Origin: Trypanosoma brucei
Taxonomy: Eukaryota
DNA: 64,000 nucleotides
Direction: 5' to 3'
NCBI GenBank assembly: GCA_000002445.1
Contig: CH464491.1
Coordinates: forward strand, 2,144,001 to 2,208,000
Made by a program: the position numbers and the translations under genes. Positions within the stretch are counted from its first letter, which is position 1. Every line of letters starts with the position of its first letter. Shown piece after piece: positions 3,023-51,288 of the stretch. The notes beneath the pieces are model-generated. The model was not told the DNA's origin. It ran no database searches and worked only from the letters and a program-made list of their open reading frames with translations.

Positions 3023-3190
3023 ACCACACTTTATAATTTTCCCTCCTCTTATTTTGTTCTCGCCTCCCTTGCTCCTTTTCGACAGCAACACAAGTTTACC
3101 GATTAATGATTACTCGTTATGTGACTAACTCACTCTTCTACTTGTGCGATAGTATTAACCACCCTTAGACACCAATAGGGGAAAATGGTA

Positions 3191-3201
3191 TAAATAAATA
3201 A

Positions 3202-3241
<40 letters not shown>

Positions 3242-3250
3242 TTATTTATG
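3191..3250. repeat. (AAAT)n(TA)n(ATTT)n compound microsatellite
   Basis: taaataaataaatacatacatatatatatatatatatatatatatatatttatttatttatg. Confidence 0.9.
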
Positions 3251-3616
3251 GGCAGTCAATCAAAAAAGACGCACAATACAAGTGAAAAAAAAAAATCAGT
3301 GCACCATGAGGTGTGTAACGAACCGAGTGCGCTGAGATATTGATGGTGAAAAGTGATAAGTGGCAGGTGATTGGGGGGAGGAATGTCGATATGTCTCATC
3401 CCTCACAGCCGCTTCGGATGTCGTCTGGCATATATCAAAAGTAAACAGACATATATATTCATGTAGCGAGAGCAGAAGCCGGAAAAGTGAACTTGGATGC
3501 GGATAAAGCATTGAACATACTCCCTGAGGGAAACGAAAGATGGAAGGATAGAAAACACCGTATCATACCTCACTCCTGGCAGAGAACCAATGCTTTGATC
3601 TGTGCATTTGTAGATG

Positions 3617-6397: not shown

Positions 6398-9300
6398 TTT
6401 TTTTGTTTTTTGTTTGTTTGTTGCTTGTGTTGTTTTGTTTTGTTTTTGCTTCCTAGTAAAAAAACTTCCACACGCACAAGTTATTCCACCCTTTTGGACC
6501 TCTGTTCCTTTTCTTTTTGTCTATGGATATGTTAATATGTATGGCCTTCAAAGGGGTCTTATGAAAGCAAAATAATAATAATAATAATGTTGCCTAAAAC
6601 CTTGAGTTTCCTTCCTTTTTCCCTTAATTAATAATGTTTGCACTAATAACGCAGTAGGGAAGCTGAAGGGGTGTGCAATTGAGAAGATTGAGGGTAAAAG
6701 AGAAAAAGAGAAAAAGAAATATAATAACCCCGCGCATAAGCGTGAAGGACAAAGTGACTGGAAGGGAGAAGGAAAATAAAGAAAAGGAGTGTGAAAAGAG
6801 GGGAAATAAGAGGGGGGGGAGGAAATGAGAGGAACCGTTAAATAGAAGATAGTGAAAGAACGTAAAAATTATTAGTATAAATAATAAAAAGAAACGTAAA
6901 TTTATTAAATGCTCTTCGTGGTGGGTGAAAGGCTACCATCATGCTCAGGGATCATGAAGAAAAGAAGCAGAGGGATTATTTTTTTTTTTTGCGGCATACG
7001 TGTGTTTGTGTTTTTTTTCGGAATGTGGGGAAGTGGCGGGAATTTGTTGTTTTTTTTTTTTTAAAAAAAAGAAAAAGAAAAACAGAAAGAGGAATGAAGC
7101 GCGTTGGAGGGGGGGGGGGGTGGCGGGCACAAGTGGTAATGAACAGCTACATCCCCACAGTTCAATAAACTCGTTTAATGTTGAACGGAGAATAATGAAT
7201 GGTAAAAACAGACAGACAAACAACAACGAAAAATAGAAGAAAAAGACGGAACAAAAATGAATATCGAAGCCCATGGCTTATCTCCACAATACGCAAATAT
7301 ATAAATATATAAATATATTTACATGTATTTATTGACTCCCTCCCCACACACACCTTCCTCCGTACCTCTGTACGCAAAGAAAAGAAAAAAAAAGAAAAAA
7401 TGCGAATGACCGCAGCCATCCACAACTCAAGTGAATGACGAAACAAACGAAAAATAATTCCTCCACTGGGGTTTGCCACCACTCGCAACCCGCTAGTCTC
7501 CCAACCACAATAAATGGAAACAATAGTAAGTGCAATGAGTAGAAAAAACAAAAAAACAAAAAAACAAAAAACAAAAAACAAAAAACATACGAATTGCAAT
7601 TTTAAAAAAAAACGACCAAAAAAGCGGGTAAAACAGGGGAGGATGGAAAGAAAGAGTTTAAGTGCCTCCTGCACTCCTTTTGTTCATTTATTTCCTTTTG
7701 GTTTTTTTTTCGTTTATTCAACGGTACAAACCGAAATATCTGTGTATTATTAGTTACTTTTTGTTCTCCTAAACCTACACTCTCAAACCAAGCAAACAAA
7801 CACAAACACAAGCACACACATACGTACATGAATTAATAACAATAACAATAATAATAGCACTCTGTTTTGTCGTGCATATTATATGTATGATGTATAACAT
7901 ATTTTCTCAAACAAAACAAAACAAAACACTTCAAGCAGTATCCTAAGCGCAAATTTTTTTTTAAAAAACGCCCGTAAAACCGAAAAAAAAACAAAGGGGA
8001 AGAGGAAGGGGGTGGGTGAATACCACCGGCATTGCCAGGTTGAATCAGTACCTCAAGCAACAGTTTGTGATGTATTAATTCAAATATTCGTGCGTGAAGC
8101 GTATAATTGAGTTTCTGGACACGCAAGCGGTGGGAATATGCAACACAAAAGAAAAAAAAGAAAGAAAAAAAAGAAAAAAGTGGTGTGGCATATAACGCAG
8201 TGAAACGGTACAGCAAAAACAGAAGGAATCGCATGAGGCATTCAACAAAAGTAGAAAAGGAAACAAAAGAATGAAACGAATTATTCGCCAACGCGAGTTT
8301 GAGTAAAAGGAAGAGATAATAACAAGTGGTTAACAGCTCGCCTCCCCTCCTCCTATACATACATAAACACATGTGCCTTTCCCCCAAAAAAAACCTTCTC
8401 AAAAAAGTAAGAAACGAAAAAAAAAAGTAAGAAGAAAAAAAAAACACCGAAAACGAGTGAGGAACAAAAAAAAACATCAAAGTAAATTTTAAAAAAAAAG
8501 AAAAGAAAAAAGAAAAAAGAGAAGACAAGCGGAACTCCAAAAGGTCCATTATTTCTCCTCCTCCGTCCCACCGGAACGCACCATTTGCAACAACAACAAC
8601 CAAAAAAAAAAGAAAAAAAATGAAACAAATAATGAGCCGCTCTCATGCAAGAGATAAAAAAAGGAGACGGGGGAGGTCGTATAAACAAGAGTTCGAAAAG
8701 AAACTAAAACGAACAAAAAGAAAAAAAGAAAACAAAAGAAGATATATGCGGTTATTAACAACTTGTCCCGCAGTACGTCCCGCAATATTTCAACATTTGG
8801 CCCCAGTTTGGATAATTTCATCAGACAATTTCATCACCGAACTCCTCATGACTAAATTGACCCAATGCAATTCTCATTATTATTTTATTATTTTGCTCTT
8901 TGTTGTTTCTTTTTTTTTTTGTCGACTTTCTTCACAACCTCAAAACTGTGAAATTCAAAGTGATCACTGTTGTTTGTTTTTCTTTGTTTATTGTACCCAT
9001 GTGAGAAGTACCAAATAAAGCAATGAAAGCAACAACCCCAGCAATAATAGTAATTAGTAATGAGAAAAACAGGAGAGATAATAAAAGAACTTTGAAAAAA
9101 AAAAAGAAAGAGAGAAATAAATACAACAAACAAAACACAACATCAATAAGAAGTAACAATAAATATAATAATTATAATAATTATAATTATGGTAATAATG
9201 ATGATAACAACAACAACAACAACAAATGGCCTAAAGGATGTATCACAGAGCTAACAACTTCCATGCCCCATCCAGAAAAAACTTCCAACTTTGGGCCACA

Positions 9301-9969
9301 TAATGCAAAAGAAGTGACGTAAGAGGTGAGAAGAAAAGAAGGATTTAAAAAGAAAAAAAAGTAAAAAAGAAGTAAAAAAGGATTACGGCAAACAACAACG
9401 ATGAAACCATTGGCCACCTTTTCAAAGTAAGTTTTATTGTTTTCATTTTTTTTTTCATTTTTTTAATTTTTTTTTTTTAAATCTTTCTTTTCTTCTCACC
9501 TCCTTCTTTGGCATACCCCCTGCCGCGGACTGTCACCTTTGCAGAAACTGGCAAGGTACTCGTCCTTTTAAAAAAAAAAAAACAATAAAAGATCAAAAAG
9601 AAAATTTTCGACTTTATCGAACTCTTTTACATGCACCATCAGCTGTGCTTCATTCTATCATTAAATATTTTTCTTTCTTTTGTTCTTTAAATATTACTCG
9701 AACACGTCAATAATTCCCAACAACTGCAATTGAGCCTCACAATACGCCTTGCCTCCTGTTACCGACACCGATGCGACACAACAAAGCCACATGTATATAT
9801 ATATATGTATATATATGTATATATATGACTACAAATACGAACACAGAATTTTTTTTCAGAAATCAGAGTAAAAACGTAAAAAGAAAAAAAAAGATGTTAG
9901 TAAATAAGGTTTCCCCCATCACTATTAGACGCGCCCTTATATTATACATAATTTCTTCCTAAACACACA

Positions 9970-10007
<38 letters not shown>

Positions 10008-11362
10008 TATATTATTATATATATATATTGCCTTATCCCGCCACTAAATAATAATCCATTAATCCACTAACCGACCCCGCATTAATGTCAAGACGATTTC
10101 TTCCCTCATTATTTTTCGTTCATTATTTTTTTTTAAATAATTTGCATATTCTTTCGTTTCTCTTCTTTTAAAAAAAAAAAAAATACTTTAATCATCCCTT
10201 AAAATACGGACAGTCGCGCAAAGCGGATAATGACAGTAACAACAACAACTACTACTACGTAAACGCCAGTATAATTTGCTTTTCAACTTTTTTTTTTTTT
10301 TACATCTGTACCGCAGTAATTGACACCAAAAAAAAAAAAGGTACACACGCAATAATGTGGGGGGGGGGAGAAAAAAAAAAACAGAAAGTTGTCAAAACGG
10401 TAAAAAAAAAAAAATGATGGGCGTCGCCCGCTCCTCCTCCTCCTCCTCTTCCACCTCCTTTTCACACACATCAGCAAATGTAAAGGCAACCGCAAATGGT
10501 AATTTTTCACACATATACACACAAAAAACAATAAATATTGTTGTTATTATTATTATTATTATTAGTTTTCTTTTCTTTAAAAAAAAAAAACATTTGCCGC
10601 AACGTACATACAGGAAAACATATGTGCGGAAAAAAGTAAGGAGGAGGAAATGGTGGGACCAAAATAAAGAAAAAACAAAAAAAAGAGAACAACAACAACA
10701 ATAATAATAATAATAATAACAGTGTTAATAGTAAGATATTATGAACTACATTAATAACGACAATAATAATAATAATAGTAATAATAATTTTAATAGTGAC
10801 TTACAAGGGGGGAAAAAAAAAACCACGGCGCGCACAGACACACAAACACATAAAAACATACACGTGTATGTGTGTATGCCTTCCCTGCTCTATTATTATT
10901 CTTTTTTTTTTTGTAAAATAATTAATTATATATTTTGTTATCATTAATTTGTTTTCTTTTCTTTGTTTCAATATATTTATTTTTCATTCCCTTTTGTTTG
11001 TCCGTTTTGTCAAAAATGCGGGACCCGTATATTTACATCTTTTGTTCCCACACATTCTTTCTTTCCTTCTTTTTTTCCTGCCCCCCCCCACCTCCCCTCA
11101 ACTGTAATGTAACTCACATCACATCACACATTACATGCGCTCAAACTTCACCTGGTCAAAAAAAAAAAAATGATGATAAAATGGGAGACAAACGTAAGAA
11201 CAACAACAAGAAGAAATAAAGTGAAATAAAAAGAAAAGAAAACATCCCGTCAATTTTCCATTTTATTCAACTGCTTGTGCATTTGATCTTATTTCTTTTT
11301 CTTTTCTCCCTCTTTTTCTCTCTTGTCATTATTATTTCTTCACTTCCCCTCTCCATTCCTCC

Positions 11363-11397
<35 letters not shown>

Positions 11398-13593
11398 GGA
11401 GGGGGATGATTTGTTTTTCCCTCAACATATGAAGGCACATCGCCGTTAATTATATAATTGTACTCGTATTTGTATACGCTTGCATGCCTTTACTGCGGCG
11501 TCTCCCTCCCCTGCTCTCCTTTTCCTTTTCCATTTCCTTTAAAAAAAAAAAAGAAATTGTCGAGAAGAGGAACTCCGAAACAAAAAAAAAGGGAGGGAAA
11601 AGACAAAATAAAGAAGATAAAAGCAAAGTAAAGTAAAGTAAAAAAAAAAAAGTAAAGAAAAGAAAAGTAAAATAATGGAAGCGAGGGCGGAGGAAACCAC
11701 TCAATGCAGATGAGCGTGTGAAATATGTGCAAAGGAAACCAAAACCAAAAAGGGGGAAAAAAAGGAAAGAATGGAGGCTGGTGTGCGACTAAAGATAAGA
11801 TCATACAAAATTATGTCAAAATATGAAAACAAAAATTCCCTTTGTCGTTCTTTCTTTTTTCTTTTTTGTTTGATTTCACTCCAGCAGACATATATATATA
11901 TTTTTTTTTAATAATTTTCCTTCTACCATTACCACCATCCAAACCTTTCTCTTCACCCTCTTCCTTTTAACTTCTCTACATGAAACATACAGAAAATATA
12001 TACATTTACCGTATATTCCATGCGCAACATGTGCATATTCCGAATCCGTACACTCGTATACATTTTTATTTTCATTTTTATTTTTATTTTTATTTTTTAA
12101 AAGGGAAAAGAAAAAAACACAAACACAAACACTTTTTAAAGGCCATTTTCGCATTTCCCTCCACCTCCTGCGTCATGTCATATCAAACTGAAAGCGCAAC
12201 CACACATTTTCAAACACGCAACTCGTGATTAATTGGCACGCAACCATTACGACTTTTTTTTTTCACAAAAAAAAAAAAGAAAGAAAATATCAAAGAACGG
12301 GGAAAAGAAGAAGTCCCTTCCCTTCCCATCCCATTTCTCTCGATCTCTTTTTTTTTTGTTGTTTTTGCTTATTTGTTTGTTTCTTTTGTTTTCTTTTTTC
12401 TTCCCCTCTTTCCCTCTTCTTATTTTAATTTTTTTTTTTAAAAAGAAAAAGAAAACAAAAGTTGATTCGTTTCCAATAAATGTCACCACAGCGTCGGTGG
12501 ATGAGGAGGCACTAAAGTGACGTAAGTCGGAGGTGGTAGTGAAGATTAAAAACACGGGAAAAGCGAAAGGGAAAAAAAGAAAAAAAGAAAAGGGGAAGGG
12601 AAAAAAGAAAAAGAAAAAGAATTAATTCCGATGCCACGTCATTACCAAAAATAGGCGTTTTTTTTCTTTTATTTTTCTTTTTAATTTCCTCTTTTTTACT
12701 TCTTCAAAACCTTACAATCCGCAGGGGCGTGTTTTCGTCAAAGTAATAACGACTAAGCCTCCATCACTACGGCAAGCAATGAATTTAAAAAAAAAAAGAA
12801 TCACAAAAATGAATAAAGAATTCAGCGCCTCACAACATAATTGTAGTAATGAAAAGTAATAATGGCTGATACACAACTTCCCAACTTCCTCCTCTCTCTC
12901 ACATGTGGTCGTTCATACTTTTGAATTTTACAAATAAAGACGAGAAGAAAGCAAAAGGAAATCCAACAATAAAAAACAAAAAGGTAAAAAAGAAAGAAAG
13001 AGAAGAAACCCCCTTTTTTTTTCCTGCTGTTTGACACTTATCTTTTCTTTTCTTTTTTTTCTTTTCTTTTCTTTTTTCTCCTCATGCCCCGCCATGTTAT
13101 TCTTCTTTTTTTCCTCCTCCTCCTCCTCCTCCTCCCATCCACATGGTAAGAACAAACACACATACAAAGACACAAACACAGAAGACAAAGGAAAAAAGAA
13201 AAAACAACAACATTATAAAAGGAGAGAAAACAGGTAGCGGTGGCAGTCATAACAGCAGCAGCATCAACATCAACAGCGACATTAACAGCGACAAAGGTAA
13301 AACCATCCCACTAAAAGAATAGTTACTTAGAAAGAGAACAAAAGAAAATGACAAAACAGGACGAAGGCGTGCGCGCGTGTAGTTATCTTTTTTTTTTTTA
13401 AAAAAAAAGAAAAAGGAAAAAAAGGAAAAGAAGAAAGCGGAACAGTCAGTGGGGAGCGGCCGAGCCTGCGGCGTATTAGTGAAGCAAAGGGTCAAAAAGC
13501 ATTTTTTACCGGCAAAAAAAAAAAGTTTCTTATCGGCCAAATCAATAATATCACAAACACATACCACAAAAAAAAAAAAAGGTAACTGACACC
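6398..13593. repeat. 7.2 kb low-complexity spacer (poly-dA/dT, (TA)n, (AAC)n, (AAT)n, purine/pyrimidine tracts) between two same-strand genes
   Basis: No ORF with protein-like composition in any frame. Track ORFs here are Phe/Lys/Asn-rich translations of homopolymer runs. Homopolymers and microsatellites are dense throughout. Confidence 0.85.
9972..10028. repeat. (TA)n / (ATTAT)n microsatellite
   Basis: catatatatatatatatatatatatatatatattatattatattattatatatatatat. Confidence 0.9.
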
Positions 13594-36153: not shown

Positions 36154-36603
36154 CTAACTTCCGGGGCGTTTCATCAAGATATAGACGTCGCTATTATAAT
36201 GAACGTCTTTAAGACTCTGGGGTTTTCCGACAATCTGCGTTAGCAGTCCGCCGCAACTGATATGAACCGTCACGTCCAAGCTACTTTCGTTAACTTCCAT
36301 GCTGTACACGCGGCCGTGCATGGCATAATCACAATCGTCTAGGCGCGTGGAGCGATGGTATACACTCTGGTCGTAGTGCTTAGAGCCTGCTTGTTCAGAC
36401 AGCTCGATGGAATCTGTCAAAATTATGGTCAACCGGTCGCCGGAGTGAAGTGGAAATTCTCCCGTGTTAACGTCGGATGTAATAATAAGACCTCCTCCCT
36501 CACCTGTACACCGAACTCGTGACACTCGGGAGTAAACCGTACCCTCCTCGTTCACAGCTGCCACCGTGAAGGTGTCTTCCAATATTACTTTCGAGGAAGC
36601 CAT
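36154..36603 (-). CDS. RPB8: RNA polymerase I/II/III common subunit RPB8 (ABC14.5)
   Basis: 149 aa from the Met at 36603. The OB-fold pattern DTFTV...VSRVRC...ITSDVN...FPLHSGDRLTIILT...DDCDYAMHGRVY...HISCGGLLTQIVG...YILMKR is collinear with yeast and human Rpb8 (DYVMYG...SFGGLLM...YLLIRR). Confidence 0.8.
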   Translation of the reverse strand: MASSKVILEDTFTVAAVNEEGTVYSRVSRVRCTGEGGGLIITSDVNTGEFPLHSGDRLTIILTDSIELSEQAGSKHYDQSVYHRSTRLDDCDYAMHGRVYSMEVNESSLDVTVHISCGGLLTQIVGKPQSLKDVHYNSDVYILMKRPGS

Positions 36604-36823
36604 CACACTTTGCAACACAAGGGGCACATGTTATACATAAGCGAAGATGAAAAAGAAAGTATGAGGGAATATAGGGGGTCAGCTTCGCCAACACCCATGG
36701 TGCCACGTTGATCATTTACAGTGGTTTGTGGAAGGCAGAGAGGGTTGTCCAAACACGCTGTATACGCCAACTCTACATTACAAAAGGAGAAGAACGACAG
36801 TAAATGCAAAGGTGACAAAAGTT

Positions 36824-40546: not shown

Positions 40547-42130
40547 CTACTGATGATTGTCGCATTTTATCCAGCCAAGAACATCCTTGGCTACATTCGA
40601 TACGACACGCTGCTCTTCGGTGTGTCTGGCTGCTCGCGCGCCAAACCTCTCCATTGACTTTCGGCGCTCATGAAAGGCCACCTTTTTTAATAGGTGTCGC
40701 GCCTCCAGTTGGTCAGATGAATACGTTGTTGAAGCAATTCCTCTGGAAGCCAATGTTCGACTTCTCCTAACAGGTCGCGGTGGAGACTTTGTGATAATGT
40801 TGACTGTGAAATCGGGGTCACCTCGTTCCTGAAGCAGAGTCGCCAAAGCAGCTGAGTGAGCGCTCCTAACGTATTCTGTAGCTTCGCTGTCAAGATTCCT
40901 CCCAATGTTATCAAGCCCGTAGGGATCCTTTATCGCAAATTCAAAAAATGGTGGTCTACCCGTCTCCGTTCCGGGAGACTTCTCCCAACGCATCGTCTTC
41001 TTTAGAAGGTTGATATTTGTCGTACAAACAACATTTTTCCCATAGTCAAAAACAGCGCCATAGTACTCAAAAAAAGCAGCTGTCAGAAACCCCAGTTCTG
41101 CTAAATCACAGTCCTCACCATCGTGAAGCGGCCGATAATCCGGAAAGGGCGGAAGAAGTTGTGGTTCATCCGCGGATCGAAGCGTTGACACTTTTGGAAT
41201 AACCCCCACTTTGATCAAGAAGTGAGCACACATGACGGTCAGGGCGTAACTCGCCAGAAGACCATCGATAGAATTTATAACTCCGCTCGATCTTCCCCAT
41301 CTCTTAATCAAAAGTAGTAGATGCCTTGAAAAAACATACTTAGAGAGCGCATCGCTCAACAAATACGAATTCCGCAATCCGACAGAAGAAAAACAAAAAT
41401 CGAAGGAAAGTCGGTAGAGCTCCGGTCCATTCCGAGGATCCACTGGAAGACGCAAAGGGATGTCAACACCTTCATGCCGTTTCACCTCCGTTAACGCAGC
41501 AACAAGTGCCGAACTCGAACTGAATTCAACCGTTGAGAACTGCTGATTGTTACTCCACTCTGTGTTCACCGCCCCAAAATTTTCTTCCATCCTCGATTTA
41601 AACGAAGTGCATTCATTGTTATTCATTTGTCGTGTAAACTGAAAAATACCGCACGTGGATAGGTGGTGAAGAGGTGTTCCTGGTAAGGACTTGCTAACCC
41701 TATCCACCTTTATCACTGGAACACGAGCCTTTGGCAGCGCGCTACTTTTCAAACCCAGACGTCTCATTTCCCTCGACAAACGTGAAACAATTTCACCTGC
41801 CTCAGCGACGCCGGGTTCAACATCTGCTACCCCGACGAAATCAGCATCGCCTCCAACTTCTAGTAAACCCATAACCACAATGCCTCCAAACGCAAAGACG
41901 CTCGCATCGTAGCCTGTCGACTGAACAAGCGTTTCTAATTGCTGCCTTGCCGTACTACATTCATCAAACGCAGATCTTCCAGTGTCCGAGGCCAATGCCA
42001 TCCTTACAACAGACTTCCCCAACCCCTCCCACTGGCTGTCGCTTTTAGGTGGAAGGGATGACTTCCAGGGCAACGTGATGCATCTCTTCACTCCCGTATT
42101 CCCTGACCGAAAAGCTGAAAACTTTCTCAT
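40547..42130 (-). CDS. Cid1/TUTase-family nucleotidyltransferase (non-canonical poly(A) polymerase / terminal uridylyltransferase-like)
   Basis: FGGIVVMGLLEVGGDADFV fits the [GS]S..GL...SD.D nucleotidyltransferase signature. A PAP-associated-like region follows (LLLLIKRWGRSSGV...LLASYALTVMCAHFLI). Confidence 0.75.
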   Translation of the reverse strand: MRKFSAFRSGNTGVKRCITLPWKSSLPPKSDSQWEGLGKSVVRMALASDTGRSAFDECSTARQQLETLVQSTGYDASVFAFGGIVVMGLLEVGGDADFVGVADVEPGVAEAGEIVSRLSREMRRLGLKSSALPKARVPVIKVDRVSKSLPGTPLHHLSTCGIFQFTRQMNNNECTSFKSRMEENFGAVNTEWSNNQQFSTVEFSSSSALVAALTEVKRHEGVDIPLRLPVDPRNGPELYRLSFDFCFSSVGLRNSYLLSDALSKYVFSRHLLLLIKRWGRSSGVINSIDGLLASYALTVMCAHFLIKVGVIPKVSTLRSADEPQLLPPFPDYRPLHDGEDCDLAELGFLTAAFFEYYGAVFDYGKNVVCTTNINLLKKTMRWEKSPGTETGRPPFFEFAIKDPYGLDNIGRNLDSEATEYVRSAHSAALATLLQERGDPDFTVNIITKSPPRPVRRSRTLASRGIASTTYSSDQLEARHLLKKVAFHERRKSMERFGARAARHTEEQRVVSNVAKDVLGWIKCDNHQ

Positions 42131-42332: not shown

Positions 42333-43289
42333 TCAGTTTTCCGATATTTGTTCAATGTGCCGAACAAGCTGTCCATACCCTCCACCGTACATAGCAGTCA
42401 GTGGTTGAGAAAAAGTTAGTGGACAAAAAATACCTGAGGCAACTGTAGTGTAAAAGTTGCTAGCAGTCCCCTCTCGCGTTTCACTGGAAAAGATTTTTTC
42501 CAGAAAATCACGTCTTCTCGCTGCTAAAAACGAAGAGTTCACAACTGTTGTTACGTTTTCTGAGGTGACATCATGCAAACCGATAGTTTCCATCAAAGAA
42601 AACTGTATGAAGTCTGTGTTAACCTTTGCCTCAATGGATGAATGCGCTGCCATTACTCTTTTAGCAGGTTCAACAGAAATGGGGTGCTCCATTTGCTCCT
42701 TCAAATCTGAGGTCTGATGTGAGGCTGGCAAAACACCAAAGTGCCCACCAGCCTTAATATAATCCACAAAGGGTGCCGCACCATCCTCAAGGAAAGATAT
42801 CAGCTGCGAGACGTAAAACCGCCTTTTAGATGATGTGGCCCCTCTCTCCCCTATTGATAGGTTCTCCACTTTGCAGTTCTCCAAAATGAATCTCCTAAGC
42901 CTCCGGCAGAAGCCACTCCGCCACCGCATTCGGATCAAGTAACCTCCTACCACAGCTTTAAACTTTTCAAAAAAAATACCCACATCTTCTTCCGTTAGAA
43001 TTTCTTCGACATCATTTCCCGAGGAACCAAAACCACTGTGGAGATCGCAGCCATCGCATTTAGGCAAACTGCTCCGATGTTGTGCCCCATTGCACCCGGT
43101 CGCCGTTACTGAGACTTCGTTGCTGAAATCAACATCTTCTGAGAAGTCAGCATCGCGACACAAGGTTAACGACTCGCTTCGAATGACGCGATCCATGTCC
43201 CTCTCCCTCACCTCTGTAACGCCATCAGCCGAAGATTTTGCATCACAGGCGTGAAATCCAATCTGTTTATAAAACAATCCAGCAAGCAT
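42333..43289 (-). CDS. Hypothetical protein (318 aa); first gene of the minus-strand PTU
   Basis: Complete ORF with non-repetitive composition. Nothing coding lies upstream of it in the strand-switch region. Confidence 0.5.
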   Translation of the reverse strand: MLAGLFYKQIGFHACDAKSSADGVTEVRERDMDRVIRSESLTLCRDADFSEDVDFSNEVSVTATGCNGAQHRSSLPKCDGCDLHSGFGSSGNDVEEILTEEDVGIFFEKFKAVVGGYLIRMRWRSGFCRRLRRFILENCKVENLSIGERGATSSKRRFYVSQLISFLEDGAAPFVDYIKAGGHFGVLPASHQTSDLKEQMEHPISVEPAKRVMAAHSSIEAKVNTDFIQFSLMETIGLHDVTSENVTTVVNSSFLAARRRDFLEKIFSSETREGTASNFYTTVASGIFCPLTFSQPLTAMYGGGYGQLVRHIEQISEN

Positions 43290-43589
43290 ACCCTGAATAC
43301 GAAGTTATAGCACCGTACCGTGTGCAAACCACTCGCTTAAATATTAATAACTTGGTTGTCTCAAAGGTTAGGAAATACAAGGCAACCAAAAAAGGGATGG
43401 TTATGCAAAGGGGATGGCAAGTTAGTTTGCAACGCGCCAACTTTGACATAGAGGTGAGAACAGATGAATATCACCGCAGGAACATGTGGACACACGCCCA
43501 TCCTTGCCTATGTTGCAGAAATGCCCAGTAACCCGGAAGCTCGAGGGGGCAAAAAACTATCGATTGCACCGCCGAATATATAATCCGTA

Positions 43590-44300
43590 TCGCATCTATA
43601 CCACTTCCGCAAGACAAAGGGCCACCTTCACCACAAACCTTTTAAAAAAATATACACCGTCGTCCAACCAACACAAGACAAAAGCGCCACACACCTCCCA
43701 AGCTCCGGCGTTGGTACTCAATTGCGCAAGTTCGTCGCGAAAACGGAACTGAAAGACCTGCGCTAAACTACAAACACGAACGGGTAATGGAAAAGAACCA
43801 CTGATCGACGTTTCGTGGCGGCTCCGCCTCCTCACCACCCCTCTCTGTTTTTCCTCCTCCATTCAATAGAGGCACTCCACCTCAACAAAATATACGAAAA
43901 AGAAAAAGGTGCAATCAGAGAGTTTGGTTGAAACGTGCTGCTCACGTATCACCCTCCGAAGCGAAAGCATGTCCAGTAGAACTAACATGGACAGGCATTC
44001 ACACATACTCCACTAAAAATAGAAGTCAGAGGGGGCAGTTGCCCACGCACGACGGCCACCACCCACCACAGCAGCGGTAAACAGGGAGACTCTACGAAGG
44101 GCAAATACAGTGCCACATCACCGCCCCCATGGGTGTTCCCCCCGCCCCTGACGAGACGGAAACATCATTTCTGTGACGCCGCCAACCGGCTCGCATAGAA
44201 AGGAACAGAGGAACAAGGCCCTCCTTCGAGCATTGGCACAGCGGTGACACCTGACATCAGACAACCAGAGCAACCAGGTGCGGCAACAGTCGAGCACCAC
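43590..44300 (-). promoter_or_regulatory. AC-rich tract on the top strand (GT-rich on the minus strand) with C-runs at 44121-44149; candidate GT-rich promoter for the minus-strand PTU
   Basis: ccaccacccaccacagcagc, cgtccaaccaacacaagacaaaagcgccacacacctccc, ccgcccccatgggtgttccccccgcccc. Lies just upstream of the first minus-strand gene. Confidence 0.45.
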
Positions 44301-46684
44301 AGGAAGGTGCCTACTTTAAGCACTGCCTAATGCCAGCGAAAGTGCACACTTTTATGCTCTGTTGACGGGGTTATCTTGCCCCTCAGCGGGGATACCAAGC
44401 AGAACCCAGTTCCCGCTCCCATCATCGGAGCTTAACGAAACGGAGGGACACCTCTCAGGCGGAAACGTGTGATCCTCCCGGCAATGCTCTGCGAGGGCGC
44501 GCTGGACCTTTCCGTCACGCAGGAGGTGATCGCAAAGATTATGGGAACCGCGCCATTCACCTCCTATGGTTGCAAACACACGGGGCTTGCCCATTTTAGA
44601 GATAAAAGCACCAGGGCGTCAACACACGTTCGTTTTGGAGTGGTGTAGCTACGAGTCTGAGAACAAACACAGATTTGGGAAGCGTCACTGTTGCAATGGT
44701 GCCTGAAAGTAGTGAACAGCATGCTGTGACATATTTCCCTTTCCCCGACAACTCTAACGTGAGCACGGGAAGGTCGGAGTTACTGGGAGAAATAAAGGTC
44801 CACGGCTATTTTGAGCGGATTCGAATTGTCGCCCTGCTGCCGGAACTCGCGCGCCCCAAAGGAAGAGAGTGAGAGAAGCTGATATTAAATTTGGCAACTG
44901 GAGAAGAGTTTAATGGTCACCGGCAGTGAAGACCTAATGTGACACACAACACTGGGAGACAGGCTGTTTCACACAAACGTTACCTATTTCTGGCGTTGTG
45001 AGGTGATCGTTCAGAATGTGGTGCGGAACCGTAACAGCTACCACAGTTGGATCACCTCCAATGTAGCAGTGGGGCGCGATATGAAAAGGATAATGTACTT
45101 CAAAACTCCACAACCTTTTACTTCCTCAGAAAAGGGGGCTGGTTGGCCCAAATTACTGAAAGGAACGCGCAATTAAGCCCCGTAAATAGGGGAAAGGTGG
45201 AGTGGACGGCACTTGAAGACTCCAACGAGGGCATTACATCTGTTGTTCGCCCGTTGACATCAAATACAATCCCTAATAGGGGCGACATGCTGCCACAACA
45301 ATGGGTGCCGGAACAGAGAGTCCGTGAAAGTAAGGCAAATCAACGCAGGAGCCTAGCGAAAAGACTAGCCTTCATTAGGTTGGGAAAAAATGTTTTGAAC
45401 CCTAGCGATGCCGGCCACATCAACGTGGTGTCAGGGTCCAGTACCCCGTATCATCGGGGGAAGCCAAGAGCTAGCAGCGTTCCTCTCATGGGGAACACTG
45501 CTGTGCTCCGGCTACGGCATCATACAGCACAGGGATCAGCAGCGTCTTGCTGGGACACCGTTTTTCATTTGTCGGTCCCTGGGCACGTGGCTAGCGTGCC
45601 ATCAGCAGTATCATCCGCACTAAGATGCTGCTGTCCGGTGATGATGTTTCGAATGATGTATTTTTAGGGTGTCGAGGGGGAATGCTGCCAAATCATCCGT
45701 CACTGAAGGGCGAAACTGGATTTGACCGAGGGTGAGTCCACCGCCTGCTCGTCATCTATCATCGCTCAGGCAAGAAGTGAGTGCACGGTGACGAAAAAAT
45801 GATAGACACAAGTTGTATGTAGATACGTATACGTAGCATTCTACAAAGAATCCAACAATTCCACCAACGAATGTTGCCATCACTGAATACTGTCCGTTTA
45901 AGCCCATTTTCAACGCGGTTACAATAAAGAGTCCCTCGGAGAGGCGTTTGTTGTACTAGAGAAAGGGGGGGATGAAACTTCTAACATAAAGTTAGCCTCC
46001 CTACGTAAAACTGGCAGGGCTTTGATGTCCAAACGGAGATTCCTGTTGTCTCACCGTAGATCCACAATCAGGCGCCTCGTTGAGGTAGAGAAGCTGAGCA
46101 TGCACGCCCACTGGACCAGAATTGAGTCGAGTGGGAAAGGCTACAGCAGCATTCTCCCGCATGTAGCGTAGCAGATGCACTGCCAAACAAATATCATAGG
46201 ATGTCCACAGGTGCGTGCAAGTGCGCCGTTAGGAACATCAACCACATCAAAATGCACAGCAATGCCGGTGTCAAAGTGAGCCCGCATCTAGCCCAGGCAG
46301 CGCCAAGGAAAATACCGATGGGTTTACGAAGCCGAAGCATATTTTATTTGGCAGCACGTTAGCCCAGGGGAAGTGACCTTCCGTTTCCTCAGCCGTGCCA
46401 AGAATTTTCGCCTCGGAGTAAGTCAGTTCCATCTTCTTTCCCGCTCGCCCATTAGGGCTGGTCGTGGCTTTAAGGTGGAAGATGCATCTGTTCTCATTAT
46501 TAAGACTCTGTCTGAGTGGAGGCACGTGGCTCTAGCACTACTAGACACGAAATTGTTTGCACAGCAGTGCGTTCTGTAAGATTCAACAGCCAAGCAGTGA
46601 GTTCCATTTTCCTTCCTTGTGGAAAGAGGGGTTCATTATGGAATGTCCGGCCCATGTCATTGAGACATATTCTTCCGGACGCCT

Positions 46685-46699
46685 GGGGGGGGGGGGGGC
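46685..46699 (+). repeat. G15 homopolymer in the middle of the strand-switch region
   Basis: gcctggggggggggggggggctc. Guanine runs on the coding strand are the one motif reported as enriched at trypanosome Pol II start regions. Confidence 0.9.
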
Positions 46700-48479
46700 T
46701 CATGATTCATTGTTGTCTTCACAATAACTATCCAATCATCAACGCTGAGGAGCATATATTCTTGACGAGTATGACCTAAACGCCGTTTTTTATCGGATGT
46801 AACGTTCCTACAAGACTAAGTGGTTTCGGGCAGAAGTGGACGGCCTACAATCTATAACGAAAGGCAAATGGTATTCCTTGACGAATGCATGGTACTAGGC
46901 AAACTACCAAAACCACTGAAATTACCTCGGTGAGTCCTGTTTTCACGGGTATGCAGTGACTTGGGAAAGATGACCCCCGTCAATGAAAGAGTAAAAGCAA
47001 CCAAAGCGGTTGGGGGGTGGAGAAATATCCACAGCCGTACCGACACACAGTTTTGTGACCATTACTCACTATGAAATGATCGGGGCAGATCATTGGACAG
47101 GAGAATACCGGAGGCCTCTCTCCTGAGACAAAAAATTGGCCGGAACGGAAAATAAGATAAATATCCCCACAAAAAAAAAAAGCAGGCGCAACCACCTTTT
47201 GCTTCAGAAGCGAACGCCCATATCTGACTCTGCTCAATTCCCAGCGGTGTCGAAAGAAAAGCTTCAGCATAGGTACGCCTGATAAGAACGGCCTCAAGAA
47301 TCAGCAGACGAGTTGCGTCTTGCTTAGCGGACTCCTCAGTGCGAGAATCGCACCTCAGGATGGTGGAAAAAAGAATCAATTGCTTTATTACCCCGAAGAT
47401 TTCTGGAGAATCATACTCAGATCTCTCATCACCCCCTCCGCGGGATACTTACCAACTGAAGGGTGACATGGGAGTCAGATTGAGGGAGCACGTGGTGACC
47501 GGTGAGCCGGCGGAAGGCCAAGCAGAATTTGCAACCCTCATATTATTGGTCTCACGGGGGCCACACCTGCTAACTGTGGCAAGTTGTTCCATATGGCGCG
47601 GCGAAACATAACGACCAGCATAGCACTGGCGGCGGTTTTGTGGCTAAATCGAAAAGGGGGTTGATGCTCCTCTTCTGAGCCCCATGCCGTGGCGGCCGGC
47701 TTTCTGGGAGGTACTCCGGCATCAAAGGGGTCCTTTCAGTCAGTGAGGAAGCCGCAGCGCCGTCTTGGATAGCGTTCGTCGCGCGGTCCCAATTGTTCAT
47801 CGGTCCGCAGCCTAGCAGGGCATTTTGGCCAACTCTCCTCCACACCCCTGATTCATTGTCCCGGAGCTTTACCATTCAGAAGTTGAAGGTACGTTTCGTC
47901 CCTACTAAAAGTGCAACCTGGTCCTGCTACGTGGTGGAATCTTGATGCGCTGAAGTGGAAAATGTGGAATCGGAGTGTAATTGCAACGGACCTCCCCCCC
48001 ACATAAATGAGGAAAGAGATAACTTTGTTGGGAGAGGAGGCGGTGCACTTCCTCCTTGAAGTCAAGGAGTTCCACCTTCCTTCTCGCACCAGTACTTTCT
48101 TCGCGTGAACGGTGCGTGCCAACAGAAGCAGTCAGGCTGCTCCTAATGATGCCACCTCTCCGTGTTTGGTGCACCTAAAGAGGGTGAGGAATTCTTTGAC
48201 TTTAGGCTCACCGATCTTGTCGCCACTAACGTTTAGGAGTATTCAAAAGATTGACGATGTGCATTGGGCCCCAAGATTGGCTTGGGGCTAGCGATGTCGC
48301 TTCTATCGCGGGATGTGTTCGACATTGAGGGCGGGCATGTAACCTCACAGTCCCCTCTATTTTAGGGAAGGCTGAGGAAAAAAAATGGGCGTTCTCTTTC
48401 CATAAGAAAAGCAAAGCAACTGCCGCCGTTTGGTGCAACCGAGGTGGACGCGATATGCCCGAGTTGCTTCATGTTTTTT

Positions 48480-49340
48480 CTGAGGTTAGCACCGCTGCCA
48501 AATGCGGTGCGTCCGCGTCGTTTGCCAAAGGTTCGTTGAGTTTGTGACCTTTTGTAGCGGCGTCGTCCCGCCGTTAGCATTGCTTGGATATCCTCTGCCG
48601 GGGAGTGGGTGCCAGAAGACTCACCCAACTGCATTATCCCTGAAAGGCGCCAGGGTGGGAGACGCCGACGCTGGGAACGCTGACACTTGGCTGTCGCGGG
48701 CCATTCCGCGCAATTGGGCGGCTTTCTGTGTAAACCTGCAGGCGCGAGGGGTTGGACTGGTGACGGTGGGCTTGTCGTATGGTTCTCCCAGCGTCGTTGT
48801 TAGACAGGTCCTGGGGTGGGGCTGTGGTGGTAACGAGTTGCGCCTGTATGGCTTTTGTCGCTCCTCAGTGCTTTGCCGGGTGTGGGGAGTGTCTGTCCCC
48901 CTTTCTGCCTTTACGCCGTGTTCCGTGGATGATTCCATTTTTTCGCTTTTGCGCTACCGTATATTTCGTGCGTGCGCGTCACGCTCCACCTGAGGTGCAG
49001 GCTGTGTGTACTGGCTTCGGCTTACCCTTCCCGGGTTTGGGCGTCTCACCTCCGCTTGGGAGTTGGGGGGTACGTCGGCTAGTTTTGGTTTTGCCGGTCC
49101 CACAAACAAGCGAACGGGGACGGCGTGTTTTGGCAGGTTTTCTACTTTTCCGATACTTATAGAAGTGTGCTGCTATCATATCTCCTCCATGTGATGGGAA
49201 AGCATGGGCGAACTACTGGCGATTGTTCAGTTCTACTTGTGACCGGGTGACAGTGGTAACCAAGCATTCATGTCGGAGCGACGGGGTGTCTGGTACTACA
49301 CACCTCCTCAATGTTTTTTCCTTAAAAAAAGAATTGCATT
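48480..49340 (+). promoter_or_regulatory. GT-rich tract on the top strand immediately upstream of the first plus-strand gene; candidate GT-rich Pol II promoter
   Basis: Strong G+T skew: gcgtccgcgtcgtttgccaaaggttcgttgagtttgtgacc...ggtgacggtgggcttgtcgtatggttctc...ggggtggggctgtggtggt...gggtgtggggagtgtctgtc...ggtttgggcgtctc. Confidence 0.5.
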
Positions 49341-49614
49341 GACCGGTTTGTGTTTCAGTTCTTGCTTCTGTGCCCGGAGGGGTTCAGGCCCATACCCCGA
49401 AGTCGCTGCCGTCTATCGCCTCTGCTGCTAATGTGCGTATTTATCCTTGCGCACGCTACGCAATGCGATGTATTTATTGCAAAGATTTCTAGCACAGCAC
49501 AAAGCGCTTTACTAACGCGTGTGTTTCCCCCTAGGGGTTCTTTATTTTCCCGTCTAATTGTGCCGACCCACGTGTACTGCTGCTAAAAGTTATTTAACAT
49601 GAGCGATATAGTTT

Positions 49615-51288
49615 TTGTTTTCCATTTTTTTTAAAAATATTTTTGCAGTACTGATGTTCGCTGATAGCCATTTAGGTGGATGTACATCAACAAAAAGAAA
49701 TAGAGGTGATTACGAGACGTTGTGGGGCTCGCAGAGCCGAGCGCAAGTTCGCTTCGTAGAAGAGCTTGTCGAGTCGTACTTCCTTAGACCTTCTAGGATA
49801 GAATCTGAGCAGGCTAAGAGGAAAGGTCTTGGCTCTTGCAATTTGGATGAAGTTTCACCCTCGCTAGCGAAGCAGGTTGGTGCCGTTGTTCATCGCTATC
49901 AGTTGTTGAACAGCAAATACGTACCGTCTTCTTTCGCTCATTCTAATGTTCCTCTGCAGGCCCCGAAACGTCCATTCATAGCTGCCGTATTAGCCATTGT
50001 GGCACGAGCATGTGTGTTTGAGAATAGCGGTGTACACATCTCAGTGACCGCCTTCGATAGATGGTTTGAGGCGAATAGTTGCGGACGATTTTTAATATCA
50101 AAGGTTTGGTTAGACGCGAAGATGTATGTAGCAAGGTGCGTGGCTAGAAGAGACAGGATAGCACTTTTTGGTCAAGAAGTGATAGGATATCAATTTATTC
50201 ATTCTGGAAGGCTGCGCTCTTTAGACGAGAGGATTTTTTGGATGATACATGTTAGCATTGGGTGCGGCGACTTATCGCTGCACGACCATGCTGTGGTCGA
50301 ACATTTTAAGTGGCAAAACATTCCTGAGACAGACTCTTGGTTTAGGATATCAAAAGAATCTCATATATGGAGTATTTGGAGCACGACCGTATTTTCTTTG
50401 GATATTTTTTCCGATACATCGGCGGAAGATAAAACAAAAACTTCAGAGGCACTACTCGGTGAGGGAGTTAAACGCGGTATTCAACTTGTCGCGCTTGTAA
50501 TTGGCTTTCTCCGTTCTGAACGCATTGATAAATGTGATCACTCTTATCGCACTATGCAGGTTCTTTTTTCGGGTACTGCTGGCGAGTTGGCCGCCGTAAG
50601 CGTATTTTTGGGAATGAAGAGAGCCGTCAAAATATACTTTTCAGGCAAACCGTTCAACAAAAAATACATTCTCAAGTCAACGGAGATTATGTCCAGGCTG
50701 TTCCAGCAGCTTGTTTTATATTATACGTTCTTAGTTCCCACTAACCGGCACTATTGTTTATTGGATGCTTGTGAGGCCCTGTGGCAAAACTCCCGCGGCA
50801 GAGGTTTACAGGAAGTTTCCAAGGAATCTGCGGTGTCGGTACGACGCGAAAATTCTTTTAATGTGTTTCAAGAGGATGTGTTCGTTGGTTGCCTAGAGGG
50901 AGCCTGTATTTACCGACCGTTCCGAGATCATACGCTGACCCCACCTATGTCACGTTGTAACTTAAATATAATTGGTTCCTCGAGTGGGTTGGAGTTATTT
51001 TTACGAAGCATTGAATTGCAACGCGGCATAAATAGCGAAAGTACGAGTCAATGTTGTGAAAACGTTTATAAGCGAAATCTGCTGGTTGAGGTATTTAGTA
51101 CACGGACTGTGGACACATCCATTGAAGATATAAATCTGTGCACATCGTGGTGTCTTCTTAACCTTCCACCCGACACAGAAGATGAAACACATTTTGTGAA
51201 TCAGTTTGTTAGAGACACGCCTGATTCTGTGTCGAAGAAGTTGGTTATTGACACTGTAGTTGCATTAACGGAAGAAGATGTAGCTTAG
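49615..51288 (+). CDS. Hypothetical protein (557 aa); first gene of the plus-strand PTU; AT-rich third codon positions
   Basis: Long uninterrupted ORF with non-repetitive composition. Codon usage is visibly more T/A-ending than RNR1 or MCM2. Confidence 0.55.
   Translation: MFSIFFKNIFAVLMFADSHLGGCTSTKRNRGDYETLWGSQSRAQVRFVEELVESYFLRPSRIESEQAKRKGLGSCNLDEVSPSLAKQVGAVVHRYQLLNSKYVPSSFAHSNVPLQAPKRPFIAAVLAIVARACVFENSGVHISVTAFDRWFEANSCGRFLISKVWLDAKMYVARCVARRDRIALFGQEVIGYQFIHSGRLRSLDERIFWMIHVSIGCGDLSLHDHAVVEHFKWQNIPETDSWFRISKESHIWSIWSTTVFSLDIFSDTSAEDKTKTSEALLGEGVKRGIQLVALVIGFLRSERIDKCDHSYRTMQVLFSGTAGELAAVSVFLGMKRAVKIYFSGKPFNKKYILKSTEIMSRLFQQLVLYYTFLVPTNRHYCLLDACEALWQNSRGRGLQEVSKESAVSVRRENSFNVFQEDVFVGCLEGACIYRPFRDHTLTPPMSRCNLNIIGSSSGLELFLRSIELQRGINSESTSQCCENVYKRNLLVEVFSTRTVDTSIEDINLCTSWCLLNLPPDTEDETHFVNQFVRDTPDSVSKKLVIDTVVALTEEDVA

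What the first reader, a model, noticed from the sequence alone, without database searches (positions are those of the whole stretch)
43290..49614. Divergent strand-switch region with opposed GT-rich tracts and G/C homopolymers: a probable bidirectional Pol II start site
Gene orientation flips here: minus-strand ORFs to the left, plus-strand ORFs to the right. This ~6.3 kb region is the only stretch of the window that is neither coding nor A/T low complexity. Its flanks are compositionally mirror-imaged. The top strand is AC-rich at 43.6-44.3 kb with C-runs at 44121-44149. The top strand is GT-rich at 48.5-49.3 kb with a G15 run at 46685-46699. Each GT-rich strand faces outward toward its own gene array. 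This matches what is described for T. brucei polycistronic start sites (GT-rich promoter elements, guanine runs, H2A.Z domains). I am reading that arrangement directly from sequence, not from annotation.
Basis: partly seen in the sequence, partly recalled or inferred. Interest (0 to 1): 0.6.

Follow-up and report, generated by a model that had tools for sequence, protein, structure and literature searches.

The report
Known trypanosome divergent transcription start region
This is a divergent strand-switch region on Trypanosoma brucei chromosome 11 that is already catalogued as a pair of RNA polymerase II start regions; its middle is lineage-specific filler that holds a retroposon fragment and differs between strains.

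Summary
The window is T. brucei TREU927 chromosome 11 (v4 2,144,001-2,208,000). Gene orientation does flip at 43290-49614. The outer flanks are skewed in opposite directions: top strand 63% A+C at 43.6-44.3 kb and 60% G+T at 48.5-49.3 kb. The skew is modest, and ordinary intergenic stretches in the window reach similar values. The G run is G14, not G15. It lies in a compositionally neutral centre of about 3.7 kb, not in the GT-rich tract.

Kolev et al. 2010 (Table S14) already list both flanking gene arrays, starting at Tb11.02.5830 and Tb11.01.0540, as "Divergent" Pol II units.

- Positions 45400-45645 are the 5' end of an ingi/RIME retroposon. Its Pr77 hallmark matches the published ingi consensus at 74 of 79 bases.
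- The same strand switch is only about 1 kb long in T. cruzi, T. theileri and Leishmania, so about 5 kb here is added DNA.
- T. b. gambiense and T. b. equiperdum IVM-t1 lose colinearity with this window exactly at the retroposon's first base. In gambiense, 29.65 kb stands in place of about 90 bp.

Interest is low.

The parts
42333..43289 (-). First gene of the leftward polycistronic unit (318 aa; EAN79759; Tb11.02.5830, assigned by ID order next to KPAP1, which is Tb927.11.7960)
   Evidence: Exact protein match to TREU927. Orthologs in T. congolense, T. cruzi, T. theileri and T. grayi. Listed as first ORF of a 'Divergent' unit in Kolev Table S14. KPAP1 identifier from PMC4798371.
43290..44500 (-). 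[quoted passage not shown] Probable 5' part of the leftward start region.
   Evidence: A+C is 0.629 at 43590-44300. Cumulative skew falls until about 44.5 kb. Eleven A/C-only runs of 9 nt or more between 43 and 45 kb.
44501..48300 (.). Compositionally neutral centre, acting as a spacer between the two start regions. No detectable coding capacity except the retroposon fragment.
   Evidence: G+T is 0.497 and cumulative skew is flat. No Pfam domain in any of six frames of 44301-48500. No tRNA or Rfam match. The equivalent gap is about 1 kb in T. cruzi, T. theileri and Leishmania.
45287..45667 (+). Annotated hypothetical ORF Tb11.01.0560 (126 aa), which is read-through of the retroposon 5' end and is probably not a gene
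   Evidence: Exact match to EAN79760, found in TREU927 only. No detectable transcript in Kolev Table S2. Its C-terminal part is the ingi/RIME 5' sequence.
45400..45478 (+). Pr77 hallmark, the first 79 nt of an ingi/RIME-type retroposon, pointing toward the rightward unit. The CGTG downstream promoter element is at 45424-45427 (+25 to +28).
   Evidence: 74 of 79 bases identical to the published T. brucei ingi Pr77 consensus (PMC4748587 Additional file 1). The core pattern is unique in the window, with 0 matches in shuffles. Aligns to the L1Tc Pr77 oligonucleotide.
45400..45645 (+). 5' 245 nt of ingi (the 'RIME-A' half). Homology to the ingi ORF stops before the 2A peptide and endonuclease.
   Evidence: tblastn with P0080, an ORF with the ingi-type N-terminus followed by a DVEENPGP (2A-type) motif: aa 1-34 are 100% identical at 45488-45589 and aa 42-52 match at 45610-45642, with nothing beyond. 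RHS pseudogene products P0077 and P0078 read through the same sequence at 86-89% identity.
45646..45970 (+). Possible remainder of the retroposon; its 3' limit is unresolved
   Evidence: T. equiperdum OVI contig CZPT02001628 follows the window to 45970 and then enters another locus. Contig CZPT02001585 starts at 45914. A 9-nt direct repeat GAAAAAATG lies at about 45384 and about 45792. No clean poly(A) plus target-site duplication was seen when reading the sequence.
46685..46698 (+). G14 homopolymer on the sense strand for the rightward unit; length varies between strains
   Evidence: G13 in OVI (L002 position 772) and G12 in IVM-t1 (L008 position 1609). No canonical four-tract G-quadruplex motif anywhere in the region.
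48301..49653 (+). Right arm: top strand GT-rich. Probable 5' part of the rightward start region, plus the pyrimidine-rich stretch just upstream of the first gene.
   Evidence: G+T is 0.598 at 48480-49340, with the window maximum of 0.617 at 48451. Twelve G/T-only runs of 9 nt or more between 48 and 50 kb. T-rich stretch at 49611-49640.
48502..48993 (+). Annotated hypothetical ORF Tb11.01.0550 (163 aa) inside the GT-rich tract; probably not a gene
   Evidence: Found only in Trypanozoon. No Pfam match. No detectable transcript in Kolev Table S2.
49654..51288 (+). First gene of the rightward polycistronic unit (544 aa from the ATG; Tb11.01.0540)
   Evidence: Poly(A) site at 2195596, which is window position 51596, giving a 308-nt 3'UTR. 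Listed as first ORF of a 'Divergent' unit. Orthologs in T. cruzi, T. theileri and Leishmania.

Best explanation
WHAT IT IS
The region is the divergent strand-switch region of T. brucei chromosome 11 between Tb11.02.5830 (leftward array, which includes KPAP1) and Tb11.01.0540 (rightward array). It holds the upstream ends of two dispersed RNA polymerase II transcription start regions.

HOW IT WORKS
- Shown in the literature for this locus: it is catalogued as two 'Divergent' Pol II units.
- Inferred from the general model: initiation is spread over broad H2A.Z-marked domains that run outward into each array. The GT-rich sense strand of each flank (about 43.3-44.5 kb and about 48.3-49.6 kb) is expected to favour directional initiation and H2A.Z deposition. 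The first mRNA of each array would be released by trans-splicing near the first gene.
- Inferred from composition and synteny: the middle (about 44.5-48.3 kb) is a compositionally neutral spacer added in the African-trypanosome lineage.

THE RETROPOSON
The spacer contains the 5' 245 nt of an ingi/RIME retroposon at 45400-45645. I treat it as a relic, not as the promoter. Its first base is the exact point where T. b. gambiense DAL972 and T. b. equiperdum IVM-t1 lose colinearity with this window, so it marks a structural-variation boundary.
For: - Orientation flip.
- Locus identity.
- Published catalogue entry for both units as 'Divergent', and the paper's statement that 5'-triphosphate enrichment occurs at every divergent unit.
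- Published function of GT-rich sense-strand elements and the roughly 10-kb H2A.Z start regions.
- Opposed skews in the flanks and a neutral centre.
- The same gene pair is divergent with a gap of only 0.96-1.08 kb in T. cruzi, T. theileri and Leishmania. There the AC-rich and GT-rich halves abut directly in T. cruzi and T. theileri.
- Retroposon identity.
- Strain junctions at 45400, at about 45298-45313 and at 45970.
Against: - I could not view read-level TSS or ChIP data for this locus. The published table gives units, not coordinates, so where initiation occurs inside the 6.3 kb is inferred.
- The flank skews are no stronger than those of some ordinary intergenic regions. Composition alone would not single the flanks out as promoters.
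- Gene IDs switch here from Tb11.02 to Tb11.01, which suggests a join of sub-assemblies. T. b. gambiense has 29.65 kb at this point. The reference structure of the centre may therefore be one allele, or partly an assembly product.
Confidence: 0.85

Rival explanations
1. The Pr77 element at 45400-45476 is itself a working, focused Pol II promoter that launches or boosts the rightward array. On this view the retroposon was co-opted and is not a relic.
For: - Pr77 of L1Tc is an internal Pol II promoter that needs the CGTG element at +25 to +28 (PMC1874656 and PMC4748587).
- That element is intact here and the sequence is 94% identical to the ingi consensus.
- It points toward the rightward array.
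- It sits at the same distance from that array in TREU927, DAL972 and IVM-t1.
- The authors of those papers propose this role for Pr77 copies in strand-switch regions.
Against: - Promoter activity was shown for T. cruzi L1Tc. The authors state that experimental evidence for the Pr77 of other elements is still required.
- One substitution (C20A) falls in the CCACC box that was a mutagenesis target.
- The DAL972 copy carries 5 mismatches in the 29-nt core and reads GGTG in place of the CGTG element, so the sequence is not under obvious constraint.
- The same divergent start region exists without any such element in T. cruzi, T. theileri and Leishmania.
- It lies 4.2 kb from the first gene, in the neutral centre and not in the GT-rich tract.
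Confidence: 0.1
2. The opposed GT/AC skew is only a by-product of long-term unidirectional transcription and replication (mutational strand asymmetry). It has no causal role in initiation. Start-site choice would then be set by chromatin and genomic context alone.
For: - The skew is array-wide. The whole minus-strand array is 54% A+C on the top strand and the whole plus-strand array is 53.5% G+T.
- Other intergenic regions reach the same values as the flanks.
- Wedel et al. stress strong dependence on genomic context, and synthetic GT elements gave far less than endogenous levels.
Against: - Synthetic GT-rich elements were sufficient for orientation-dependent transcription and H2A.Z deposition.
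- The skew peaks right at the inner ends of both arrays, here and in the compact T. theileri and T. cruzi versions.
Confidence: 0.2
3. The 6.3-kb structure is not the native locus. The reference may be collapsed or mis-joined at the retroposon. The real region would then be much larger, as in T. b. gambiense, and would include a tRNA gene, so at least one start region would be of the 'next to tRNA' kind.
For: - Gene IDs change from Tb11.02 to Tb11.01 exactly here.
- DAL972 has 29.65 kb between about 45298-45313 and 45400, including a tRNA-Lys.
- IVM-t1 shares DAL972's flank upstream of 45400.
Against: - An independent assembly, T. equiperdum OVI contig CZPT02001628, reads without gaps through 45313-45456 with the TREU927 junction at 99.9% identity.
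- The ancestral state in three outgroups is direct adjacency of the two arrays.
- DAL972 and IVM-t1 may themselves have been scaffolded.
Confidence: 0.15

Closest known systems
T. brucei divergent strand-switch regions and transcription start regions (Siegel 2009; Kolev 2010, PMC2936537; Wedel 2017, PMC5579346)
   Same: - Divergent gene arrays.
- GT-rich sense strand at the inner end of each array.
- A G run on the sense strand.
- A spacer between the two start regions.
- This very locus is in the published list of divergent units.
   Different: Nothing essential differs; it is one of about 71 such regions. The particulars here are a retroposon fragment in the spacer and structural differences between strains.
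ingi/RIME non-LTR retroposons of T. brucei (ingi/L1Tc clade) with the Pr77 hallmark
   Same: - The first 79 nt are 94% identical to the ingi consensus, including the CGTG element.
- The next roughly 165 nt encode the ingi N-terminal peptide.
- RHS pseudogenes carry the same sequence.
   Different: - No endonuclease, reverse transcriptase or RNase H coding sequence follows, so it is not an ingi.
- I could not show the RIME 3' half, a poly(A) tail or a target-site duplication.
Retroelement accumulation at strand-switch regions and synteny breaks in trypanosomatids (as stated in PMC4748587 and PMC4035085)
   Same: - A retroposon relic sits in a strand-switch region.
- It coincides with the points where strains stop being colinear.
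- T. vivax has a Tvingi-like element beside the same array.
   Different: Here the flanking arrays are syntenic across the family. Only the spacer is disrupted.
Compact orthologous strand-switch regions in T. cruzi, T. theileri and Leishmania martiniquensis
   Same: - The same flanking orthologs.
- The same AC-to-GT switch on the top strand, checked in T. cruzi and T. theileri.
   Different: - They are about 1 kb instead of 6.3 kb.
- No neutral centre in T. cruzi or T. theileri.
- No Pr77 core and no long G run in T. cruzi or T. theileri.
- No DNA-level similarity to the T. brucei region beyond low-complexity matches.

Membership tests
T. brucei divergent Pol II transcription start region | Two polycistronic gene arrays pointing away from each other | tested here: met
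   All large ORFs are on the minus strand left of 43289 and on the plus strand right of 49615. The arrangement is conserved in T. cruzi, T. theileri and Leishmania.
T. brucei divergent Pol II transcription start region | Primary (5'-triphosphate) transcript ends enriched on both sides | tested here: met
   I did not see the reads. The locus, mapped by coordinates, appears in Kolev 2010 Table S14 as two 'Divergent' units. The paper states that enrichment occurs at every divergent unit.
T. brucei divergent Pol II transcription start region | Enrichment of H2A.Z/H2B.V and H4K10ac over about 10 kb | not testable with these tools
   No ChIP-seq tracks are available here. This is a general property.
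T. brucei divergent Pol II transcription start region | GT-rich sense strand, strongest at the 5' end of each start region | tested here: met
   Sense-strand G+T is 0.63 on the left and 0.60 on the right, against an array background of about 0.54. G/T-only runs are about twice as dense. Similar values occur in other intergenic stretches.
T. brucei divergent Pol II transcription start region | Sense-strand guanine runs (reported for such regions; recalled from Siegel 2009, which I could not read here) | tested here: inconclusive
   There is one G14 on the plus strand in the centre, with variable length. On the left only C5, C6 and C4 are present. Runs of 9-12 G or C occur elsewhere in the window on both strands.
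ingi/RIME retroposon (ingi/L1Tc clade) | Pr77 hallmark at the 5' end, with CGTG at +25 to +28 | tested here: met
   74 of 79 bases match the ingi consensus, with CGTG at 45424-45427. The core pattern is unique in the window, with 0 matches expected by chance.
ingi/RIME retroposon (ingi/L1Tc clade) | Sequence downstream of Pr77 homologous to the ingi 5' region | tested here: met
   P0080 aa 1-52 map to 45488-45642. P0077 and P0078 match at 86-89% identity.
ingi (autonomous element) | Endonuclease, reverse transcriptase and RNase H coding sequence | tested here: not met
   No Pfam domain in six frames of 44301-48500. Homology to P0080 ends before the 2A/endonuclease part.
RIME (non-autonomous, about 500 bp) | ingi 3' half, poly(A) tail and flanking target-site duplication | tested here: inconclusive
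   No RIME or ingi 3' reference sequence was available. There is only a 9-nt direct repeat (GAAAAAATG) at about 45384 and about 45792, and a strain junction at 45970.
DIRE (degenerate ingi-related element) | Long, heavily mutated ingi-like coding remnants | tested here: not met
   The Pr77 is 94% identical to the consensus, so it is not degenerate. No coding remnants were found. The only hint is a tblastn hit of E=0.002 at 45224-45415 among 27 queries. The full-library HMMER search found no true homolog for the part of that ORF upstream of 45400.
HDV-like ribozyme of L1Tc/ingi 5' ends | Nested double-pseudoknot fold with a conserved catalytic C | tested here: inconclusive
   No Rfam match, even at E up to 1. 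The pseudoknotted fold was not modelled.

The most novel reading that the evidence does not exclude
The ingi/RIME 5' end at 45400 may be an active player and not an inert relic. It could be a recombination point at which this ancient start region has been re-paired with different upstream DNA in different Trypanozoon lineages: about 90 bp in TREU927 and OVI, and about 30 kb with a tRNA gene in gambiense (IVM-t1 shares the gambiense junction). Its largely intact Pr77 in TREU927 could also feed transcription into the rightward array. That would make the locus a natural experiment on how far a dispersed Pol II start region depends on what lies upstream of it.
Probability: 0.1. Interest if true: 0.5.

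Novelty: already known. Interest (0 to 1): 0.15.

Why it matters
The finding shows that strand-switch start regions of trypanosomes can be recognised from raw sequence. However, this locus is already in the published catalogue, so nothing new follows about transcription.

Two smaller points may be useful.
- Comparison with T. cruzi, T. theileri and Leishmania shows that only about 1 kb is needed between these two arrays. The T. brucei version is therefore mostly dispensable spacer.
- That spacer is bounded by a retroposon end at which strains differ structurally. Anyone using this locus for reporter insertion or promoter dissection should take this into account.

Tried and rejected
- tRNA, snRNA or other structured RNA in the region: none found.
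- Internal or window-wide repeats of the region: none.
- Hidden protein-coding genes or reverse-transcriptase/endonuclease remnants: no Pfam hit in six frames.
- A three-frame translation of 45401-47200 found nothing in the word-indexed protein search. This negative is unreliable, because the full HMMER search later found clear homologs of the same stretch.
- An older degenerate ingi upstream of 45400: only one marginal tblastn hit (E=0.002 among 27 queries). The other matches to the part of the ORF upstream of 45400 were bacterial surface proteins, which I read as spurious compositional matches. Rejected.
- DNA-level conservation of the strand-switch region with T. cruzi, T. theileri, Leishmania or T. 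vivax: only low-complexity hits.
- Canonical G-quadruplex motif in the region: none.
- Siegel 2009 and Cordon-Obras 2022: not held in the library, so their motifs could not be tested.
- Full RIME and ingi reference sequences: not found in the searchable text.


Full report
**Where the window comes from.**
Five ORF products of the window are exact matches to T. brucei brucei TREU927 proteins EAN79758, 79759, 79761, 79765 and 79767, on a 5.26-Mb record. ORF coordinates in Kolev et al. 2010 Table S2 fix the position. Tb11.01.0550 lies at 2,192,502-2,192,993, which is window 48502-48993. Tb11.01.0560 lies at 2,189,287-2,189,667, which is window 45287-45667. The window is therefore Tb927_11_01_v4 2,144,001-2,208,000.

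Poly(A)-site coordinates confirm the gene assignments. The site of Tb11.02.5790 lies 113 nt below ORF 36154-36627. The site of Tb11.01.0540 lies 308 nt below ORF end 51288. By ID order, Tb11.02.5820 is KPAP1 (40547-42130), which PMC4798371 gives as Tb927.11.7960. Tb11.02.5830 is then the 318-aa gene at 42333-43289.

**Checking the observation.**
The strand flip is real. The gap 43290-49653 is the longest ORF-free stretch in the window. It is the only gap of 900 bp or more with GC of 0.5 or higher.

The claimed skews exist but are modest.
- The top strand of 43590-44300 is 62.9% A+C, against 54% for the leftward array.
- The top strand of 48480-49340 is 59.8% G+T, against 53.5% for the rightward array.
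- Ordinary intergenic stretches at 51.3, 56.6 and 8.1 kb are just as skewed.

Cumulative (G+T)-(A+C) falls until about 44.5 kb, stays flat until about 48.3 kb, and then rises. There are thus two skewed arms and a neutral centre of about 3.7 kb, not a mirror plane.

The homopolymer is G14 at 46685-46698, not G15. It lies in the neutral centre. It is G13 in T. equiperdum OVI and G12 in T. b. equiperdum IVM-t1. The 'C-runs' are only C5, C6 and C4. G or C runs of 9-12 bases occur eight times elsewhere in the window, on both strands.

**Is it a Pol II start region?**
Table S14 of Kolev et al. 2010 is titled 'Putative Pol II transcription units'. It lists Tb11.02.5830->Tb11.02.5420 (-) and Tb11.01.0540->Tb11.12.0017 (+), both as 'Divergent'. 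The text says that 5'-triphosphate reads were enriched at every divergent unit and at all sites marked by variant and modified histones.

Wedel et al. 2017 report three relevant points.
- Initiation is thought to occur within H2A.Z domains about 10 kb wide.
- G/T-rich 10-mers are concentrated on the coding strand at the 5' end of each start region.
- Synthetic GT-rich elements drive orientation-dependent transcription and H2A.Z deposition.

It is also already known, and it is better phrased as two dispersed start regions separated by a spacer. The two ORFs annotated inside the region gave no detectable transcript (Table S2), so calling the region non-coding is fair.

**What else is there: a retroposon end.**
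Positions 45400-45478 (+) match the published T. brucei ingi Pr77 consensus at 74 of 79 bases. The CGTG downstream promoter element sits at +25 to +28. A 29-nt core pattern is unique in the window and is not expected by chance.

A full-library HMMER search with the ORF that spans this stretch found several relatives.
- RHS (retrotransposon hot spot) pseudogene products read through the same sequence at 86-89% identity (P0077 and P0078; P0078 carries RHS_N).
- P0080 begins with this same sequence and continues through a DVEENPGP (2A-type) motif into further coding sequence, as expected of an ingi ORF N-terminus.

P0080 residues 1-34 are 100% identical at 45488-45589. Residues 42-52 match at 45610-45642. 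Nothing matches beyond that. So 45400-45645 is the 5' 245 nt of ingi, the part that RIME shares.

No endonuclease or reverse-transcriptase remnant is present. The 3' end could not be fixed. Candidates are 45645, about 45800 (a 9-nt direct repeat) and 45970 (a strain junction). The annotated ORF Tb11.01.0560 is read-through of this element.

**Comparison with other species.**
Around KPAP1 orthologs the same divergent gene pair is found in three outgroups.
- T. cruzi: gap of 1,077 bp.
- T. theileri: gap of 964 bp.
- Leishmania martiniquensis: gap of 1,019 bp.

Orthology of the flanking genes was verified by BLASTP for both sides in T. cruzi and T. theileri, and for one side in Leishmania. In T. 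theileri and T. cruzi the AC-rich and GT-rich halves abut directly.

The strand switch is therefore ancient, and about 1 kb suffices. The T. brucei version carries about 5 kb of added DNA, which matches the neutral centre. In T. vivax a Tvingi-like element with RVT_1 and RNase H lies beside the same array, on the opposite strand.

**Differences between strains.**
- T. b. gambiense DAL972 is colinear with the window only up to about 45298-45313 on the left. It resumes exactly at 45400 on the right.
- Between those points it has 29.65 kb, by record coordinates. The 8 kb that I could read has no ORF above 141 aa, no similarity to the window, and a tRNA-Lys.
- T. b. equiperdum IVM-t1 also starts colinearity exactly at 45400. 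It has the same upstream flank as DAL972.
- T. equiperdum OVI reads through the TREU927 junction but leaves the window at 45970 for a GDPD/UPF0220/CEP76 array. A second OVI contig starts at 45914.
- TREU927 gene IDs switch from Tb11.02 to Tb11.01 here, so a join of sub-assemblies cannot be excluded. The independent OVI contig argues that the short junction is real.

I did not resolve how these structures relate. The safe conclusion is that the spacer, bounded by the retroposon's first base, is structurally unstable or hard to assemble, while both skewed arms are conserved.

**Mechanism.**
- Shown: divergent arrays; the catalogue entry as start regions; the flank skews; the retroposon identity; the compact ancestral form.
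- Inferred: initiation spreads outward from about 44.5 kb and about 48.3 kb across H2A.Z domains, with the GT-rich sense strand giving direction; the centre is spacer.

The rival that Pr77 acts as a focused promoter for the rightward array is not excluded. It is weakened by four points: poor conservation of Pr77 in DAL972, its absence from the compact orthologous regions, its position 4.2 kb from the first gene, and the lack of experimental evidence for Pr77 outside T. cruzi L1Tc.

**Verdict.**
The added findings (retroposon relic, expansion from about 1 kb, strain junction at the element's first base) are members of known phenomena. Interest is low.

Noticed in passing
L009 1-7975 and L010 1-322 (T. 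b. gambiense DAL972 chr11 FN554974.1, 2,195,083-2,224,735): DAL972 has 29.65 kb where TREU927 has about 90 bp (window about 45299-45399). The 8 kb that I read is ORF-poor, unrelated to the window, and carries a tRNA-Lys(CTT) at L009 2487-2561. The remaining 21 kb was not seen.
   Followed up: partly
L001 1-6303 (T. equiperdum OVI CZPT02001628) versus window 45970: The OVI contig follows the window to 45970, a G-run, and then continues into a different array (GDPD, UPF0220, CEP76, DEAD helicase). A second contig starts at window 45914. This is either a real rearrangement or a chimera through a repeat.
   Followed up: partly
L003 about 1-3350, minus strand (T. vivax SOPI01000162.1): A Tvingi-like retroelement (RVT_1, RNase H, zinc finger) lies beside the KPAP1 array in T. 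vivax, on the opposite strand. Its 5' region is 73% identical to a published Tvingi. ingi-clade retroposons therefore lie beside this array in at least two African trypanosome lineages.
   Followed up: partly
window 45400-45600 versus L008 and L010: The first 200 nt of the retroposon differ from IVM-t1 at 12 positions, against 0-2 per 100 nt over the next 400 nt. DAL972 has 5 mismatches in the 29-nt Pr77 core. This may reflect gene conversion with other ingi/RIME copies.
   Followed up: no
window 8550-13593: A 5-kb ORF-free, AT-rich stretch (GC 0.33) packed with A and T homopolymers of 9-15 nt lies inside the leftward array. Its nature was not examined.
   Followed up: no
window 7109-7127 (+): G12 followed by TGGCGGG is the only canonical G-quadruplex motif on the top strand of the window. 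It lies on the antisense strand of the leftward array.
   Followed up: no
window 45287-45667 and 48502-48993: Two 'hypothetical protein' genes of the TREU927 annotation (Tb11.01.0560 and Tb11.01.0550) are probably not genes. One is retroposon read-through and the other is an ORF in GT-rich DNA. Neither gave a detectable transcript in Kolev 2010.
   Followed up: yes
The word-indexed protein search returned nothing for a long query with stop codons replaced by X. That query contained a stretch for which the full HMMER search later found clear homologs. Negatives from such composite queries should not be trusted.
   Followed up: yes
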